Positions 1 through 63,386 are shown, counted from the first letter of the whole stretch. The stretch: 63,386 bases of DNA, filler included, from Basidiobolus ranarum (GCA_040143965.1; 46 parts of 46 records of this genome joined end to end with filler, not necessarily neighbours in it), one strand, 5' to 3'. Numbers and translations are program-made. Notes: generated by a model from the sequence alone, not told the origin.

Positions 1-175
1 TCTTTTGAATGTGCAATAATGTCTAAAAGTACTTTTCTTAAACATACCACATAAGTAAAATAAACTGTTTCCAAAATGGTAAATAACATTGTGCCGGATA
101 GTGCCCAATCATGCCAATTTGTGCTGGCACACTTTTTAGCTGGCATGATCTGGCTCAATAAAATTGAACAAGTCT
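1..175 (+). mobile_element. Right end of IS5/ISL2-like DDE transposon
   Basis: Collinear with about 28112-28286, which follows the DDE transposase ORF; ends ...TTGAACAAGTCT. Confidence 0.8.
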
Positions 176-5091: not shown

Positions 5092-5440
5092 AGACTTGTT
5101 CCATTTTATTGAGCCAGATCAGGCCTGCTAAAAAGTGTGCCAGCACAAATTGGCATGATTGCGCACTATCTGGCACAATGTTATTTACCTTTTTGCAAAC
5201 AGTTTATGTTACTTATGTGGTATATTTAAGAAAAGTTCTTTTAGACATTGTTGCACATTCAAAAGATGATGAAATCTTTATTCTTAGTGTTGTAACTTTA
5301 GAGCTCTCAATGGATATCTCTGAGTATGAATGTATTGAGAATTAATCAAGATTTTGACTACTTTGCCTAACTTTGATTGAGGCCTACAAAATGATTTTCC
5401 TCTATACTTTCCTGCTACAATGCTATATCTCTTTAGGAAA
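5092..5440 (-). mobile_element. IS5/ISL2-like element: right end plus transposase C-terminus, inserted in copia-A
   Basis: Begins AGACTTGTTCCATT; reverse complement of about 27938-28286. Confidence 0.85.
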
Positions 5441-26283: not shown

Positions 26284-27037
26284 TTTAATGTCTTCTCCTG
26301 GCTTCATCTTTAAGTTAAAGAATTGTCTTCTTAGACACATCTTGTTGGCAGCAGAACTTGTTTGGTAGGTGTCTTCCAAGGCTTTCCATACCTTTTTGGC
26401 AGTTTTATCTCTTGAACATTGAATTAGCAATTTGTCTTTAACATTCAGACAAATTGTGTGAAAGACACTTTGTTCTTTTCTAATCTGGAGTAAAACTTTG
26501 GTTTCAGATAGTTTTGCATTGTTTTCTTCTCCTATAACAGTGTCTCAAAGTACTTTTTCTTGCAGCAGCATTTTCATTTTAATATTACAAGCTTGTTAAT
26601 TGGTTCCATCCAATTTTTCAGAAGAGGGAAAAGTTCAATAAATTTGAGAAGTAGACATTACAGAGAGTGCAAGCTTGGGGCTCTTGATCTTTTAAAGTAT
26701 TTGGGAGCCAGCTGGAAGTGGTTTGGAGAAATAGAGGAGTGGGTAGTTTTCACTTATTGATGTATTGAGTAGAAAGTTGACATTTATAGTTTTGTCAAGA
26801 TGTAAGCAGACTAACATGTAGAATGTGTTAAGGAAGGTCCCAGGAACATGTGTACAAAATTTGGGGCCTCTAGCACAAGTTTGAAAAATCTATATATCTG
26901 AGAACTTACAAGTTAGTAAAAATATTCTAAGTAAATTCCAAGTGAGAGTAATTGATAATATCTTACTTAAATATGAGATAACTAAGGACTAAGTTATATA
27001 TGACTATATAGGTGTTTAGACAATGCTAACTTCAATG
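26284..27037 (-). mobile_element. Copia-B LTR and gag remnant inserted in CACTA ORF2
   Basis: Reverse match to 17239-17891. Confidence 0.8.
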
Positions 27038-27564
27038 TCAACATGCCGCAAACTAATGCAAGTAATGATCAAGCATTGACCAATTTACCAGATGAGTTCC
27101 TTTCCAGCAATAGTGCAAGTGAAGAGATTATAATCCCCAATTATGTAGTAAAGCAATAGATGAGCAAAGTTTAACCAAAACACTGTCAAGACCATCAACT
27201 TTTGAGATGGCTACTTTGCCCACTATTAAACAACCCTCTATAGAAAATTTGGACAGAGTCATTACAACAAGGGAATTGTAGGCAGAACACCATAATGATT
27301 TGTATGAAATCGTAAGTAAAACTGCAAAGTTGCCATACAGGTCATGACAAGCAATAATGTTGCCATATTGCAATTGATGCCATGTTCTGAAGAACTTGTC
27401 AACAGTTAAAGAGTCAGTCAACAATGACACAAGACCTTTGGAATGCTGTACTTGTGCTACAGCAACATGCTGCTCCCTCTGTCCATTCTCATATGGGATT
27501 TCAATCAATCCCATACCATACATATGAACATCACCATGACAATCTAGTAGAGCAGAATATGTGT
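27038..27564 (+). pseudogene. CACTA ORF2 fragment
   Basis: Collinear with about 59985-60495. Confidence 0.7.
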
Positions 27565-27664
27565 NNNNNNNNNNNNNNNNNNNNNNNNNNNNNNNNNNNN
27601 NNNNNNNNTTAATTAATTAANNNNNNNNNNNNNNNNNNNNNNNNNNNNNNNNNNNNNNNNNNNN

Positions 27665-28286
27665 CCAGGCTTTGACAGATTTGCAAGGAAACATCATTTG
27701 GTTTAGTGGGCCACATCCAGGGAGACACCATGACAAAAGGCTTTGGGTTGAGAGGCATGCACCATTTGTAAGATATGAGAAGACTGTAGCTGATTTGGCA
27801 TATGTTGGTGGAGAATGTAGAAGACTAGGATGTGGCACTGCTAACAAGAGGCCCAGAGGAGAGATACTCACAGAGTGGCAAAAGCTTTATATTGACATTT
27901 TTTCCCCTTTTAGAGCAAGGGTAGAACATAGCTTTGGTTTCCTAAAGAGATATAGCATTGTAGCAGGAAAGTATAGAGGAAAATCATTTTGTGGGTCTCA
28001 ATCAAAGTTAGGCAAAGTATTCAAAATCTTGATTGATTCTCAATACATTCATACTCAAAGATAGCCATTGAGAGCTCTAGACTTAAGACACTATGAATAA
28101 AGCTTTCATCATCTTTCAAATGTGCAATAATGTTTAAAAGTACTTTTCTTAAATATACCACATAAGTAAAATAAATTGTTACCAAAAAGGTAAATAACAT
28201 TGTGCTGCATAGTGCCTAATCATGCCAATTTGCACTGGCACACTTCTTAGCTAGCCTGATCTGGCTCAATAGAATGGAACAAGTCA
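27665..28286 (+). mobile_element. IS5/ISL2-like (DDE_Tnp_4-type) transposase C-terminal half (stop at 28064) and right TIR
   Basis: Q..D..G.I..G..HD, ADLAY.G, KRPRG..LT, RARVEHSFGFLKRY.I catalytic pattern; end shared with three other copies. Confidence 0.85.
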
Positions 28287-28945
28287 AATAAGTCAATAAC
28301 CTTTGGATTAATGCCTGTCATTAGTTTCTCTACAATTGGCTCAAATCAAGGTAACTTTGGGCAAGAGTTCACACAGTTACCAAAATGTTAAACCATTCAT
28401 CATTAGAGCAAGCAGCAGCAGCTTAGATATTCAGAGTCTTTTGGTTTGCTGGTTTGCCTGCAAGACTTTCATGTGCCCAAGCAATTGTGAGTTATTTTGT
28501 AGGCGTACTGGTCCAACACATTTTCTGCTCAGCTTGCCTGGTTGTGTTCACATGAATGGTGTGGGAGTGATTGAAATCTCATATGAGAATAGAAGGAGGG
28601 AGCAGCATGTTGCTGTTGCTCACATCCAGCATTGTGAAGATCTTGTAGCATTGTTGAGAGACACTCTAACTGTTGACTAGTTGCTTCCTTACACTGCATT
28701 AATTGCAATATTGTGGCATTATTGCTTGTCATGGCATGTTAGCAACTTTATAGTTTTCAATTATGATTGCATACATATCATTATGGTGTTCTGCCTGCAA
28801 CTCCCTTGTTGTAATAATTTTATTCAAATTTTCTATGAGGGTCATTCAATAGTGGGCAAAGTAGCCATTTTGGAAGTTGATGGTCTTGATAGTGTTTTTG
28901 TTGAACTTTGCTCAACTATTGATTTACTATATAATTGGGGGATTT
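28287..28945 (-). pseudogene. CACTA ORF2 fragment (target of the IS5-like insertion)
   Basis: Collinear with about 62263-62932. Confidence 0.75.
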
Positions 28946-31806: not shown

Positions 31807-31886
31807 AATTGACAGATGGCACCAGATGGTGTACTAGCAGGCTGGATCAAGCGGCACAATCTGACCTGGTCCAATGGAACAAGTCT
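31807..31886 (-). mobile_element. Probable left end of the IS5/ISL2-like element
   Basis: Ends AATGGAACAAGTCT, the same 14-bp TIR, but with a different subterminal sequence; abuts copia pre-integrase. Confidence 0.7.
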
Positions 31887-57987: not shown

Positions 57988-59262
57988 TTTGTCAAAGTTT
58001 GAAGGATTCACAACTTGTGAATATTCAATATGCAAAGACTTCCCATCAAGCTTGGACTATATTGGAAGAATGTTATGAAGCAAAGAGTCTTGCTAATAAA
58101 CTCTTTCTCAGATGAACATTCTTCAATGTAAAGATGGAAAAGTCTGAAAGCATGGTTAATCAAATTGCAAATGTAAGATCTTTGGCAAAATAACTGGAAA
58201 ATATTGGTGCAACTTTACAGGAAGATGTCATTACAACTCTTCTAAGTAGTCTACCAGAACAGTATTTAAACTTGGTCACAGCTTTGGAAGCAAGATCTGA
58301 CAAGTTGCCTTTGGAGTGTGTGATAGTAAGGCTAATGGAGCAACACCTCAGAAGTAAGAATTTGGAAAAAGAATCTGAGGAAGTGGCTCTTTTTGGAGCT
58401 GGAAAGTGTAGCTTTGGCAAGTACAAAGGTTGCAAAAGAAGGAAACCAGGTTTATGCTTTGGTTGTAACAAACCAGGACACCATTTAAAAGATTGCAAAT
58501 CAAGAAATTACAACAAAAATGAGAAGTCAGAACAAGCAAATCAGGTTTAAGCCAAAGAGGAAGTTTTATTCATTTCTGCCCCATCAGTTGCCTCTGAACA
58601 AGACTGTAGGTTGTGGTATATTGATTCTGGAGCCTCTCAACATTTCTCTAATCAAAAAAACTGGTTTAAGGCACTCAAAACTGACATAAACAACAAGGTT
58701 TATATGGGAGATGACTGGCCACCAGAAGCTCTGGGAGTGGGAGAAATTGAAGTGGATCTTGAGGGCATCTCTGGGGACATGAATTTGACACTGAAATATG
58801 TGCTATATGCGCCTGGGATAGCAAAAAATTTGTTATCAACAAGTAAAGCTACATCTGAGGGATATAGCTTTAATTTTGATCAAAATGGCTGTTCAATCAG
58901 GGATCAAAAAGGGAATTACATAGCTTTGGTAGCTAAGCAAAATAACTTGTATAAACTTCATTATATTAGGCCAATATATGAACAAGTTAATACTGCCACA
59001 GCTGAAGAGATAGACTGGAAAATATGGCATAGGAGAATGGGTCATCTAGGCGCTGAAAATATGAGAAAAATAATCAAAAACAAGATGGTTTTGGGACTAA
59101 TTGTGTAATTCCACCGGATCTGGAGCTATGTGAAGGTTGCCTATATGTTAGACAACACAGACAGCCATTTGTGGGCTCTGGAATGAGCAAAATGGATCAA
59201 AATTTGAGCCTGCTACACTCAGATCTCTGTAGCCCAATGCAGACAAAATCCTTAGGCGGAAA
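57988..59262 (+). pseudogene. Copia-A gag, protease and pre-integrase
   Basis: CFGCNKPGHHLKDC, WYIDSGASQH, WHRRMGH, CEGC. Confidence 0.93.
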
Positions 59263-59362: not shown

Positions 59363-60637
59363 TAACATGTAGAATATGTTAAGGAAGGTCCCAGGAACAT
59401 GTGTGCAAAATTTGGGGCTTCTAGCACAAGTTTTAAAAATCTTTATATCTGAGAACTTCTAAGTTGGTAAAAATATTCTAAGTAAATTCCAATTGGGAAT
59501 AGTTGATAATATCTTAGTCAATTATAAAATAACTAAGTACTAAGCTACATATGACTATATAGATGTTTAGGCAATGCTAATTTCAACAAATAATAGCAGG
59601 GCTTCTTTGAACATTTGTGTTGTGGCATGAGAAGGATTTCTTAGAAAAACGAATTCCTCCTACATAAGGGTGGTATTTTAGGTGTAGCCCATCAATATCA
59701 TCAGCGGATTCTGAGACAGTGTCACAGATGAGTCATCAGGGGATGTACAAGATATTTCTGGTAATGGATGGCAATTTTGGGTTTATTATAAGCTGTTTCT
59801 AAGCAATTCCATTACATCAAGCTTACCATCTATAAATTTCAATGCCATACAAAAAGTAATCAAGATCTAAATCAAAATTGGCTTCCAACCCAAAGCCACT
59901 GGCACAAAAGGAAAAAAACCAGCAAGAACAGAGGACTTGATTGATGAGGAGTTTAGCAATCCACTATCCACTTTGGAAGCCATTAACATGCTGGAAACTA
60001 ACTCAAGTAATGATGAAGCATTAATCATTTTACCACATGTGTTCCTTTCTAGCAAGATTGCAAGTGAAGAGATTGTAGTCCCCCAATTATGTAGTAAATC
60101 AATAGTTGAGCAAAGTTCAACCAAAGCACCATCAAGACGATCTACTTCCAAAATGGCTATTTTGCCCACTATTGGTCAACCCTCTGTAGAAAATTAGGAT
60201 TGAATTATTACAATAAGGGAATTGCAGGCAGAACACCGTAATAATATTTATGCAATCATAAGTAAAAACTATGAAGTTGCTATACAGGTCACAACAAGCT
60301 ATAACACCGCAATATTGCAACTAATGCAGAGTTTGGAAGCAACAAGTCAACAGTTAGAGAGTCACTCAACAATAATGCGAGACCTACAGAATGCTGTACT
60401 TGAGCTACAGCAACATGCTGCTCCCTCCATCCATTCTCATACAGGTTTTCAATCAATCCCACACCATGACAATCTAGCTGAGCAGAATATGCATTGGATC
60501 ATTATGCCTACACAACAACCCAAAATTGCTTGGGCTCATAAGAGTAGAAATATCATAGGAAAACCGGCAAACCAAAAGACTCTGAATGTTGGAGCTGCTG
60601 TCACTTGCTCTGATGATGAGTGGTTTAACATTTTGGA
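59363..60637. mobile_element. LTR-B (-, to 59588) inserted upstream of CACTA ORF2 (+)
   Basis: ORFs 59937-60197 and 60222 onward are one frame split by stops. Confidence 0.78.
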
Positions 60638-62112: not shown

Positions 62113-63386
62113 TTACTAACTTCCTGCTCCTTCAGTACTTCTTTAGCTGCTTTTCTTTCTTTTCCAAGTCGATAATTGCGTACATTTTTGAGATGTTTCA
62201 TGAATAGGCCTATACTAGCCCAATTGCCATTTGCTTGCAAAAACCCAGGATAAGCCACATGAAATAAGTCAAGAACCTTCAGAGTAACGCCTGCTTTTTG
62301 GTTTTTCCACAATTGGCACAAATCCTGGTGATTTTGGGAAAGATTCCACACAGTTTCCAAAATGTTAAACCACTCATCATCAGAGCAAGTAATGGCAGCT
62401 CTGACATTCAGAGTTTTTGGGTGTGCCAGTTTTCCTGTGAGATTTCTACTTTCATGTGCCCAAGCAATTTCAGGTTGGTGTGTAGGTTTAATGGTCCAAC
62501 ACATATTCTGTTCTGCTAGATTGTCACAGTGACGTTCATATGTATGGTGTGGGAATGATTGAAATCATGTATGAGAATGGACACAGGGAGCAGCATAGTG
62601 CTGTAGCTCAAGTGCAGCATTTTAAAGGTCTTGTATCATTGTTGAGTGACTCTCTAATTGTTGAGTAATTGCTCCTGAATGCTGCATTAATTGCAATATT
62701 GAAGCATTAATACTTATCATGGCCTGTATAGCAACTTTGTAGTTTTTACTTATGATTGCATACAAATTATTATGGTGATCAGCCCACAATTCCTTTGTTG
62801 TAATATCTCTATCCAAAATTTCTGCAGAGGGTTGTATAATAGTGGGCAAAGTAGCCGTATTGGAAGTTGAGAGTCTTGATGGTGCTCTGGTTGAACTTTG
62901 CTCAACTATTGATTTACTATGTAATTGGGGGATAACACTCTTTTTACTTGCTGTACTGCAGGAAAGGAGTACACCTGATATATTGATTAATGCTTCATCA
63001 TTACCTGAGTTAGTTTCCAGCATGTTAATGCCTTTTAAGTATTGGCAACATTGGGAATTTTTTGTGGATATTGTTAACATTTTCTTATGGCATCAACTCA
63101 CATTGGCAGTTCTTAGGCAGATACAGCAACTGCACAAAGATTTTTTAAGTGGATGTGAAAAATTTTATTACAGGTTTAAAGAAGATAGATTGAATCTATG
63201 CTGGTATTAAACACATTCCTAATGCATCTTTCACAATGCTTAGAGACTATAGGCCCTTGCTATTGGAAAGGAATACATCTGGTAAGTTGCTTAATGCTTT
63301 GTCTTTACTTGAGTTAGTTTTCAGCATGGTAATGCCTTCCAAAGCACATAGTGGATTGCTAGACTGCTCATCAATTAAGTTCTCTG
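62113..63386 (-). pseudogene. CACTA ORF2 with an inverted Tnp2 fragment (about 63036-63260) inside
   Basis: ORFs 62061-62504 and 62622-63080; inserted piece overlaps 56612-56735. Confidence 0.75.

What the first reader, a model, noticed from the sequence alone, without database searches (positions are those of the whole stretch)
27665..28286. Compact bacterial-IS5/ISL2-like transposon that has been jumping inside fungal repeats
Seen: an intronless DDE transposase half (G..HD / ADLAY.G / RARVEHSFGFLKRY.I..KYR) followed by about 220 bp and a terminus. The same right end recurs at 1-175 and 5092-5440. A second end type with the same 14-bp TIR (AGACTTGTTCCATT) is at 31807-31886. The 3 bases outside the four ends are AAC, ATA (ATT in the uninterrupted copia-A at about 58890-58900), AAT and ATT, i.e. 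an AWT/ANT-like target. Targets are LTR-D, copia-A, CACTA ORF2 and another copia, so it transposed in this nuclear genome. Nothing is inserted into it. Knowledge: this motif spacing, AGAC- ends and ANT preference match my recollection of the ISL2 subgroup of bacterial IS5 and the Pangu-type members of the eukaryotic PHIS superfamily. Canonical PIF/Harbinger elements use TAA/TTA targets and a second Myb-like ORF, and no second ORF lies between this transposase and its right end. Inference: an undescribed PHIS family, possibly horizontally acquired from bacteria.
Basis: partly seen in the sequence, partly recalled or inferred. Interest (0 to 1): 0.75.

Follow-up and report, generated by a model that had tools for sequence, protein, structure and literature searches.

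The report
Decayed Harbinger-type transposon end in repeats
This is the broken 3' half of an ordinary cut-and-paste DNA transposon of the PIF/Harbinger-IS5 kind, sitting in repeat-rich scraps of a eukaryotic genome; its nearest relatives are eukaryotic, not bacterial.

Summary
The framing is not. The window is 46 unplaced contigs of about 1.28 kb joined by artificial 100-bp linkers, so the transposase "half" is simply cut by a contig end.

Positions 27666-28061 encode the last 132 residues of a DDE_Tnp_4 transposase, including the second D and the E of the triad. A TAG stop then interrupts the frame 12 codons before the natural stop. A 186-bp tail and a terminus (AGACTTGTTCCATT) follow. Two more right ends (88-94% identical) and one other end with the same 14 bases lie in other contigs. 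Paralogous uninterrupted repeat copies confirm three of the four junctions as true insertions.

The best database relative is a complete, uninterrupted 294-aa protein at 62% identity. All others are 44% or less. Nine metagenomic relatives carry a GT..AG intron at one conserved site. Three relatives are 3.5-3.9 kb, have AGAC/AGAG termini and carry an upstream second ORF with no known domain. That is the published Pangu/Harbinger2 description.

Bacterial matches cover only the catalytic core at 35% or less. Recent bacterial origin is not supported, and compactness is untestable here. The target-site duplication stays unresolved. Verdict: a new member of a known kind, of low interest.

The parts
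27565..27664 (.). Artificial linker (N44 + TTAATTAATTAA + N44). It marks the start of contig 27665-28945, so the transposase is cut here by the assembly.
   Evidence: 45 identical linkers separate 46 contigs sorted by length
27666..28061 (+). C-terminal 132 codons of the transposase, equivalent to residues 151-282 of the 294-aa relative P0001. No intron in this half.
   Evidence: Pfam DDE_Tnp_4 E 1.4e-9; tblastn with P0001 gives 62.5% over 144 aa without gaps
27792..27794 (+). GAT codon for the second catalytic Asp (ADLAY motif; D193 of P0001)
27924..27926 (+). GAA codon for the catalytic Glu (RVEHS motif; E237 of P0001)
28062..28064 (+). Premature TAG stop. Copy C has TAT (Tyr) here and P0001 has Tyr.
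28065..28100 (+). Remnant of the last 11 codons (PLRALDLRHYE) plus the natural TAA stop at 28098-28100
   Evidence: homology to P0001 runs to its last residue
28101..28286 (+). 186-bp non-coding 3' subterminal region. It ends in the terminal inverted repeat at 28273-28286, which reads TGACTTGTTCCATT on the minus strand.
28287..28289 (+). First three flanking bases, AAT. The uninterrupted paralogous site is 62262|62263.
1..175 (+). Copy B: right end only, because the window starts inside it. Terminus at 162-175; flanking bases AAC.
5092..5440 (-). Copy C: last 51 codons of the transposase (open up to a stop close to the natural one), the 3' region and the terminus at 5092-5105. It is cut by the contig end at 5440 and inserted in a copia gag-integrase region. 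The empty paralogous site is 58897|58898.
31807..31886 (-). Second end type. The terminal 14 nt (31873-31886) are identical, and the inner 66 nt are not clearly related to the right end. It is the candidate 5' end, or the end of a related element. It is inserted in a copia element; empty paralogous sites are 40521|40522 and 10145|10146.

Best explanation

**How it works (inferred from the superfamily).** The element's DDE transposase, about 294 aa when intact, binds the AGACTTGTTCC... terminal inverted repeats. It excises the element and re-inserts it at short A/T-rich targets, most likely ANT.

**What is shown.**
- The catalytic domain, with its second D and its E.
- A nonsense mutation in this copy.
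- A precisely defined right terminus.
- At least three dispersed right ends of one family, 88-94% identical, plus one further end that shares only the 14-nt terminus. All lie inside other repeats, and uninterrupted paralogous sites exist for 3 of the 4 junctions (two of the right ends and the second end type).

**What is inferred.** The element belongs to a sparse eukaryotic clade. The larger members of that clade have the architecture published for Pangu/Harbinger2: 3.5-3.9 kb, termini starting AG, a transposase with no extra domain, and an upstream second ORF with no known motif. These copies are old and no longer autonomous.
For: **Domain.** DDE_Tnp_4 scores E 1.4e-9 for the fragment and 8.6e-23 for the full-length relative P0001.

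**Relatives.**
- An exhaustive HMMER search of 1.84 billion representatives gave 158 hits at E<=1e-3. The best is P0001, 62% identical at E 1.7e-48. The next are 44% or less.
- The profile search found 25 proteins at E<=1e-5 among 5668 candidates. None carries an informative name.
- The window pairs with P0001 in the tree, SH-aLRT 99.
- P0001 shares an N-terminal region (from residues 15-16) with the metagenomic family loci, whereas bacterial loci match only from residue 121-135 onward.

**Eukaryotic origin of the clade.** All 9 family loci examined have a GT..AG gap at one conserved position.

**Architecture of relatives.**
- Inverted termini: L017 AGAGTTGTATCC... (32 nt, 3879-bp element); L021 and L022 AGACTTGGGTAG... 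(3530 and 3491 bp).
- All three have an upstream opposite-strand ORF with no Pfam hit, 3 of 3.
- None of the 9 family proteins scanned matches HTH_Tnp_4 or THAP.

**Insertions are real.** Empty paralogous sites exist for 3 of 4 junctions.

**Decay.** A TAG stop sits where copy C and P0001 have Tyr. The copies are 88-94% identical.

**Published description matched.** Passages of PMC4482050. A passage of PMC12730594 equates Repbase Harbinger2 with Pangu.
Against: - No reference Pangu/Harbinger2 transposase could be put in a tree. Repbase is not available and paper supplements are closed, so group membership rests on architecture alone.
- The duplication is not seen on both sides of any copy. Flanks fit ANT in 2 of 4 window junctions (3 of 4 using a paralogue) and in 3 of 7 metagenomic junctions whose termini were confirmed as inverted pairs. 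A 2-bp AT duplication of the ISL2EU type fits about as often.
- L017 and L021 do not show identical triplets on their two sides (ACT/TCA and TAT/CAT).
- The catalytic-core tree is weak: 159 columns, and the split between the bacterial and the other partition has SH-aLRT 89. An AU test did not reject placing window+P0001 with the bacterial clade (p 0.188).
- The 5' half, and any second ORF, of the window's own family is unseen.
- The 31807-31886 end shares only the 14 terminal bases with the right end. Beyond them, 39, 612 and 674 of 2000 shuffles reached the observed score.
Confidence: 0.72

Rival explanations
1. The window/P0001 sub-branch is a truly compact, single-ORF, intronless, IS-like eukaryotic PHIS element: a 294-aa transposase in roughly 1.3-1.8 kb overall. 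It moves without a second protein and forms a new variant next to Pangu.
For: - P0001 and P0151 are complete 294-aa proteins without interruption. They lack the C-terminal tail seen in P0010, P0014 and P0022.
- Several family members are 288-303 aa.
- The holding contigs are 1250-1765 bp.
- Han et al. say 'most', not all, Pangu candidates have two ORFs.
Against: - The window lacks everything upstream of codon 151, and no contig holds the 5' half. tblastn with 10 family proteins, including P0001, found nothing else below E 0.007.
- The geometry seen here, with the transposase stop 186 bp from the right end, matches the two-ORF relatives (about 250-330 bp in L021 and L017), where the second ORF lies upstream.
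- Short contigs cannot show that a second ORF is absent.
Confidence: 0.2
2. A bacterial IS5/ISL2-type insertion sequence recently transferred into this eukaryote, or bacterial contamination.
For: - The best NCBIfam model is the bacterial transpos_IS5_4.
- The transposase is small.
- The AU test does not reject a sister position to one bacterial clade (p 0.188).
- Han et al. place Pangu next to IS5.
Against: - The IS5_4 scores are 29.7 bits for the fragment and 54.8 bits for P0001, against a cut-off of 140.
- Plasmid tblastn gives 35.3% or less, best E 3e-7, across 25 records.
- The scan of 185,579 prokaryote species gave 11 loci. They are 33% or less over core matches of about 120 residues, with only short pieces higher, up to 49% over 35 residues.
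- The bacterial ORFs are 131-174 aa in 18 of the 19 rows of the bacterial clade (277 aa in L036) and lack the shared N-terminal region.
- Nine relatives have introns.
- The element is embedded in copia elements and has the same G+C as its flank, 37.9%.
- The copies have diverged 6-12% from each other.
Confidence: 0.04
3. A member of ISL2EU (2-bp AT duplication at A|AT|T) or of canonical PIF/Harbinger (TWA duplication, Myb/SANT partner protein).
For: - Several flanks fit the AT-type pattern (left ...AAT, right ATT...): the window's 31886 end, the paralogue state of copy C, and both L022 junctions.
- With the boundary shifted by one base, copy B reads TAA.
Against: - No THAP or HTH_Tnp_4 domain in any of the 9 family proteins scanned.
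- No YqaJ or Myb/SANT domain in any of the 3 second ORFs of relatives.
- Copies A and B start AA, not AT.
- With the shifted boundary only 1 of 4 flanks is TWA.
Confidence: 0.06
4. The junctions are assembly artefacts: chimeric short contigs in a repeat-rich draft.
For: - All contigs are about 1.28 kb unplaced leftovers.
- Three of the four element pieces touch a contig or window end.
Against: - Homology between the three right-end copies stops at the same base in three unrelated contexts.
- The flank resumes exactly at the matching base of an uninterrupted paralogue in 3 of 4 cases.
Confidence: 0.02

Closest known systems
Pangu group of the PHIS superfamily (Han et al. 2015, PMC4482050); called Harbinger2 in Repbase according to Kojima 2025 (PMC12730594)
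   Same: - DDE transposase with no additional recognised domain.
- Termini start with AG.
- The shared terminal repeat of 14 nt lies within the published 11-40 bp range.
- Flanks are enriched for ANT.
- Relatives are 3.5-3.9 kb, against a published mean of about 3487 bp, and have a second ORF with no known motif.
- The group has been reported in fungi, heterokonts, algae and animals.
   Different: - Membership by phylogeny with reference sequences could not be tested.
- The closest relative (P0001) is short at 294 aa and uninterrupted.
- The window's family shows no second ORF, because that part is missing.
- The duplication is not seen on both sides.
Bacterial IS5 family (NCBIfam NF033581 transpos_IS5_4).
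   Same: The same DDE fold family, a small transposase, and an ANT-type target as stated by Han et al..
   Different: - Scores lie far below the family cut-off: 29.7 and 54.8 bits against 140.
- Identity is 35% or less and is limited to the catalytic core.
- The bacterial ORFs recovered are about 150-aa core pieces without the family's N-terminal region.
Canonical PIF/Harbinger
   Same: The same Pfam domain (DDE_Tnp_4), a cut-and-paste mechanism, and two-ORF relatives.
   Different: - Flanks are not TWA.
- No HTH_Tnp_4 match in 9 family proteins.
- The second ORFs of relatives have no Myb/SANT domain.
ISL2EU
   Same: A/T-rich target. Several flanks fit A|AT|T.
   Different: No THAP domain in the transposases and no YqaJ exonuclease ORF in relatives.
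HarbingerS (named in PMC12730594 as related to Harbinger2/Pangu; from oomycetes; carries a SET-domain gene)
   Same: A possible neighbour lineage. Feature-based look-alikes of P0001 and of a copia RT from the window came from stramenopiles (diatoms, oomycetes), which is a weak lead.
   Different: No SET domain was seen in any relative, and no reference sequence was available.

Membership tests
PHIS superfamily (PIF/Harbinger-ISL2EU-Spy; Pfam DDE_Tnp_4) | Transposase catalytic region alignable to the family (Han et al. criterion E < 1e-4) | tested here: met
   DDE_Tnp_4 E 1.4e-9 for the fragment and 8.6e-23 for P0001
PHIS superfamily | Complete DDE triad | tested here: inconclusive
   The second D (27792-27794) and the E (27924-27926) are present. 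The first D lies upstream of the contig start. It is present in P0001 (D122) and invariant in alignment A1.
Pangu / Harbinger2 | 3-bp ANT target-site duplication | tested here: inconclusive
   Only one-sided junctions are available. The triplets are AAT, AAC, ATA (ATT in the paralogue) and AAT, so 2 of 4 fit directly and 3 of 4 via the paralogue. Of 7 junctions in relatives with confirmed inverted termini, 3 fit.
Pangu / Harbinger2 | Terminal inverted repeats of 11-40 bp, usually starting AG or GG | tested here: met
   AGACTTGTTCCATT is shared by the two end types. Relatives have AGAGTTGT... (32 nt) and AGACTTGGG... (15-17 nt).
Pangu / Harbinger2 | Transposase with a DDE domain and no other recognised domain | tested here: met
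   All 9 family proteins scanned match only DDE_Tnp_4 and DDE_Tnp_1 at E<=0.01. The window holds only the C-terminal half.
Pangu / Harbinger2 | Two ORFs, the second without a known motif; autonomous length about 3.5 kb | not testable with these tools
   The window lacks the 5' part and no genome is held. In relatives L017, L021 and L022 the feature is met.
Pangu / Harbinger2 | Falls in the Pangu clade with reference transposases | not testable with these tools
   No Repbase sequences are available and paper supplements are closed.
Bacterial IS5 family (NCBIfam NF033581) | Score at or above the curated cut-off of 140 bits | tested here: not met
   29.7 bits for the fragment and 54.8 bits for P0001
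Canonical PIF/Harbinger | TWA duplication | tested here: not met
   None of the 4 flanks is TAA or TTA at the boundary set by terminal complementarity. With a one-base shift, 1 of 4 fits. These are one-sided junctions only.
Canonical PIF/Harbinger | Second ORF with a Myb/SANT domain; transposase with an HTH motif | tested here: not met
   Relatives only. None of the 3 second ORFs has a Pfam hit at E<=1, and none of the 9 transposases matches HTH_Tnp_4.
ISL2EU | THAP-containing transposase, YqaJ second ORF, AT duplication | tested here: not met
   No THAP or YqaJ hit in relatives. The AT duplication itself is inconclusive, since about half of the flanks fit.

The most novel reading that the evidence does not exclude
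The window element and its 62%-identical relative P0001 represent a minimal eukaryotic PHIS transposon. It would have a single uninterrupted 294-aa transposase gene between AGAC termini, be under 2 kb, and have no partner protein. That is a bacterial-IS-like architecture kept or regained in a eukaryote, next to the two-ORF Pangu elements.
Probability: 0.2. Interest if true: 0.5.

Novelty: new member of a known kind. Interest (0 to 1): 0.2.

Why it matters
**If the main reading holds.** It adds one more decayed family to an already described transposon group, which is useful for repeat annotation of this genome and little else.

**What is mildly interesting.**
- The clade is very sparse in public data. 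Only 158 hits at E<=1e-3 were found among 1.84 billion representatives, and 25 in the profile search; none of the 25, and none of the ten best hits looked up by name, carries more than 'hypothetical protein'.
- Its closest member is a very small uninterrupted transposase. Single-protein PHIS elements would be simpler models or tools than the usual two-protein Harbingers.

**General caution.** Windows built from concatenated unplaced contigs make 'truncations' and 'neighbours' that are not biological.

Tried and rejected
**Searches that gave nothing usable**
- Whole-genome search for full-length copies: no genome is held.
- Word-index search for longer proteins with the fragment: no hit, although the exhaustive search then found relatives.
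- 5' half of the element inside the window: tblastn with 10 family proteins found only the two known pieces below E 0.007.
- Earlier scan notes: nothing by place or by sequence.
- A literature search for HarbingerS/Harbinger2 was swamped by the English word. Only PMC12730594 was relevant.

**Tests that were inconclusive**
- Host lineage: feature-based look-alikes pointed to diatoms for P0001 and to oomycetes and plants for a copia RT. That is too weak to name a host, so 'fungal' stays unverified.
- Subterminal similarity between the 31807-31886 end and the right ends, beyond the first 14 nt: not convincing. 39, 612 and 674 of 2000 shuffles reached the observed score.
- AU test forcing window+P0001 together with the 19-row bacterial clade: not rejected, p 0.188. 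The core-only tree cannot settle the deep relationship.
- Duplications from metagenomic relatives: the two sides disagree in L017 and L021, possibly because those contigs merge different copies.

**Leads rejected**
- The L065 'MITE' with AGAGTTGT ends: its flanks are themselves a 72-nt inverted repeat, so it is one long palindrome.
- The plain motif AGA[CG]TTG across the family loci: 21 hits against roughly 12 expected by my own estimate. I relied only on termini confirmed as inverted pairs.

**Rows left out of the tree**
- Only representatives of 230-520 aa were used, 67 of the other listed hits; shorter and longer ones were dropped.
- Only 20 of the 80 bacterial-type and metagenomic loci were used.

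Full report
**1. What the window is.**
The 63,386 bases are not one stretch of chromosome. They are 46 contigs of 1285 down to 1274 bp, sorted by length. Each pair is joined by an identical 100-bp linker of 44 N, TTAATTAATTAA and 44 N. This is a pseudomolecule of unplaced leftovers from a repeat-rich draft with 36% G+C.
- The finding lies in contig 27665-28945.
- Positions 27665, 5440 and 31807, where element pieces 'end', are contig ends. Position 1 is the window edge.
- Neighbouring contigs say nothing about genomic neighbourhood.

**2.
It matches Pfam DDE_Tnp_4 (E 1.4e-9, profile positions 33-151 of 158) and DDE_Tnp_1 (E 7.6e-8).
- The second Asp (27792-27794) and the Glu (27924-27926) of the triad are present. 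The first Asp would lie upstream of the contig start.
- The frame stops at TAG 28062-28064. Homology to the best relative runs on for 11 more codons to TAA 28098-28100. Copy C has TAT (Tyr) at the TAG position and P0001 has Tyr. This copy therefore carries a nonsense mutation.
- A 186-bp non-coding tail ends at 28286.
- The same right end recurs at 5092-5440 on the minus strand (90.8% over 348 bp) and at 1-174 (90.2%). Over the shared 174 nt the three copies match at 156, 153 and 163 positions.
- The 14-mer occurs four times with up to 2 mismatches, against 1.0 expected; 3 of 100 shuffles reached four. More telling, similarity among the three right ends stops at one and the same base.

**3. 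The insertions are real.**
The flanks have uninterrupted paralogues in other contigs, and the alignment resumes exactly at the junction:
- copy A against 62262|62263;
- copy C against 58897|58898;
- the 31886 end against 40521|40522 and 10145|10146.

No paralogue spans the junction of copy B. As for what the targets are:
- Copy C and the 31886 end sit in copia-type elements (Retrotran_gag_2 E 1.5e-25; RVT_2 E 6.7e-18).
- The repeat next to copy A has no Pfam match. In contig 26284-27564 its paralogue lies upstream of a copia gag on the same strand. 'CACTA ORF2' is therefore unverified.
- 'LTR-D' was not tested.

**4. Relatives.**
- An exhaustive HMMER search of 1.84 billion representatives found 158 proteins at E<=1e-3, 28 at <=1e-10 and 1 at <=1e-30.
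- That one, P0001, is a complete 294-aa protein, 62% identical over the whole fragment. It comes from assembled public reads on contigs of 1250-1765 bp. All other hits are 44% identical or less.
- A profile of 12 family members (A1) found 25 proteins at E<=1e-5 among 5668 candidates in the 5.8-billion set. Each is either unnamed or called 'hypothetical protein'.
- In the metagenome scan, 215 of 381 candidate stretches encode relatives and the best 80 were kept. Eighteen of these match P0001 from well upstream of the catalytic core, most of them from residues 15-51. Sixty match only from residues 121-138 onward at 29-36%; the remaining two (L024, L025) start at residue 91.

**5. The clade is eukaryotic.**
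- Nine family loci showed a break in the protein match at the same residue, after the Lys equivalent to K149 of P0001. In all nine the gap is bounded by GT..AG in phase 0.
- L017, L021 and L022 also have a second gap further downstream, plus a C-terminal tail absent from P0001.

**6. Architecture of relatives.**
- L017 has 32-nt inverted termini, AGAGTTGTATCC..., enclosing 3879 bp.
- L021 and L022 have AGACTTGGGTAG... termini enclosing 3530 and 3491 bp.
- The first seven bases match the window's AGACTTG, exactly in L021 and L022 and with one change in L017.
- In all three the transposase sits near the right end, and an ORF of 220-323 codons lies upstream on the other strand. None of these three ORFs has a Pfam hit at E<=1.
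- None of the 9 family transposases scanned matches HTH_Tnp_4 or THAP.
- This is what passages of Han et al. 2015 (PMC4482050) give for Pangu: termini of 11-40 bp starting AG or GG, a mean length of about 3487 bp, mostly two ORFs, a transposase with no other domain, a second ORF with no known motif, ANT duplications, and occurrence in ascomycetes, basidiomycetes, a heterokont, algae and animals.
- A passage of Kojima 2025 (PMC12730594) equates Repbase Harbinger2 with Pangu and calls HarbingerS related.

**7. The bacterial question.**
- tblastn against 72,556 plasmids gave 25 records. All are 35.3% identical or less, with a best E of 3e-7.
- The scan of one genome for each of 185,579 prokaryote species gave 11 loci. 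Identity is 28-33% over matches of about 120 residues; only short pieces score higher, for example 49% over 35 residues.
- The best NCBIfam model, transpos_IS5_4, scores 29.7 bits for the fragment and 54.8 for P0001, against a cut-off of 140.
- In the 19-row bacterial clade of the tree, the ORFs are 131-174 aa in 18 rows (277 aa in L036).
- Element and flank both have 37.9% G+C.
- In a tree of 108 rows and 159 core columns, the window joins P0001 (SH-aLRT 99). The six ORFs from named bacterial assemblies sit in a separate 19-row clade (SH-aLRT 99), nested in a 30-row clade (97). The window falls in the other partition, but that split has a support of only 89.
- Against my reading, an AU test did not reject forcing window+P0001 together with that bacterial clade (p 0.188).
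- The deep link to IS5 therefore stays open, as the literature already says. A recent transfer has nothing in its favour.

**8. Target site.**
- The element boundary was set by terminal complementarity. On that basis the flanks are AAT (copy A), AAC (copy B), ATA (copy C, ATT in the paralogue) and, for the other end in element orientation, AAT.
- ANT fits 2 of 4 directly, or 3 of 4 via the paralogue.
- Among 7 junctions in relatives whose termini were confirmed as inverted pairs, 3 fit.
- By my estimate from base composition, chance would give about one in ten, so a preference is likely.
- No copy shows both sides, however, and a 2-bp AT duplication fits about as often.
- TWA does not fit: 0 of 4, or 1 of 4 with a one-base shift.

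**9. Compactness.**
It fails because relatives keep their second ORF upstream, in the part this contig lacks.
- The only support for a compact form is P0001 itself: 294 aa, uninterrupted, no tail.
- I give that reading 0.2.

**10. The second end.**
Positions 31807-31886 share only the 14 terminal bases with the right end. This may be the 5' end, or the end of a related non-autonomous element.

**11. Verdict.**
- This is a decayed, contig-truncated copy of a eukaryotic PHIS transposon, most likely of the Pangu/Harbinger2 kind.
- The copies are 6-12% diverged and sit inside other repeats.
- It is a new family-level member of a known kind, and of low interest.
- The host lineage was not established. 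Weak look-alike leads point to stramenopiles or plants rather than fungi.

Noticed in passing
window 1-63386 (linkers e.g. 1286-1385, 27565-27664): The whole window is 46 contigs of 1285-1274 bp in descending length order, joined by N44+TTAATTAATTAA+N44. Adjacency between contigs is artificial, and every 'truncated' feature at a contig edge is an assembly effect.
   Followed up: yes
window 27665-27668; loci L017, L022, L023, L026, L028, L035, L040, L061, L065: The contig starts one base inside the codon that follows the family's conserved phase-0 intron site. All 9 relatives examined have a GT..AG gap there, while P0001 is uninterrupted. Whether this is coincidence or an assembly break inside an intron is open.
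   Followed up: partly
P0010, P0014, P0022; L017 3439-3873, L021 3045-3707, L022 2915-3652: Some family transposases carry a C-terminal tail of about 60 aa (VGTG...WW...V.V.L.G) after an acidic linker. It has no Pfam hit and is absent from P0001 and from the window copy. It could be a chromatin-reading module.
   Followed up: no
L022 161-649 (ends at 401 and 409): Two copies of the AGACTTGGGTAG element lie head to head, separated by 7 nt (ATTTAAT), forming a 244-nt palindrome.
   Followed up: no
window 28287-28945, 26284-27564, 59363-60637, 62113-63386: The repeat that copy A inserted into has four diverged copies in the window (74-82% identical) and no Pfam match. In contig 26284-27564 it lies upstream of a copia gag on the same strand, so it may be a copia 5' region rather than a CACTA ORF.
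   Followed up: partly
L001-L006 and the termite-gut-type metagenome loci (L027-L091): The bacterial relatives recovered have mostly short ORFs of 131-174 aa that cover only the DDE core. This suggests two-part transposase genes, perhaps joined by frameshifting.
   Followed up: no
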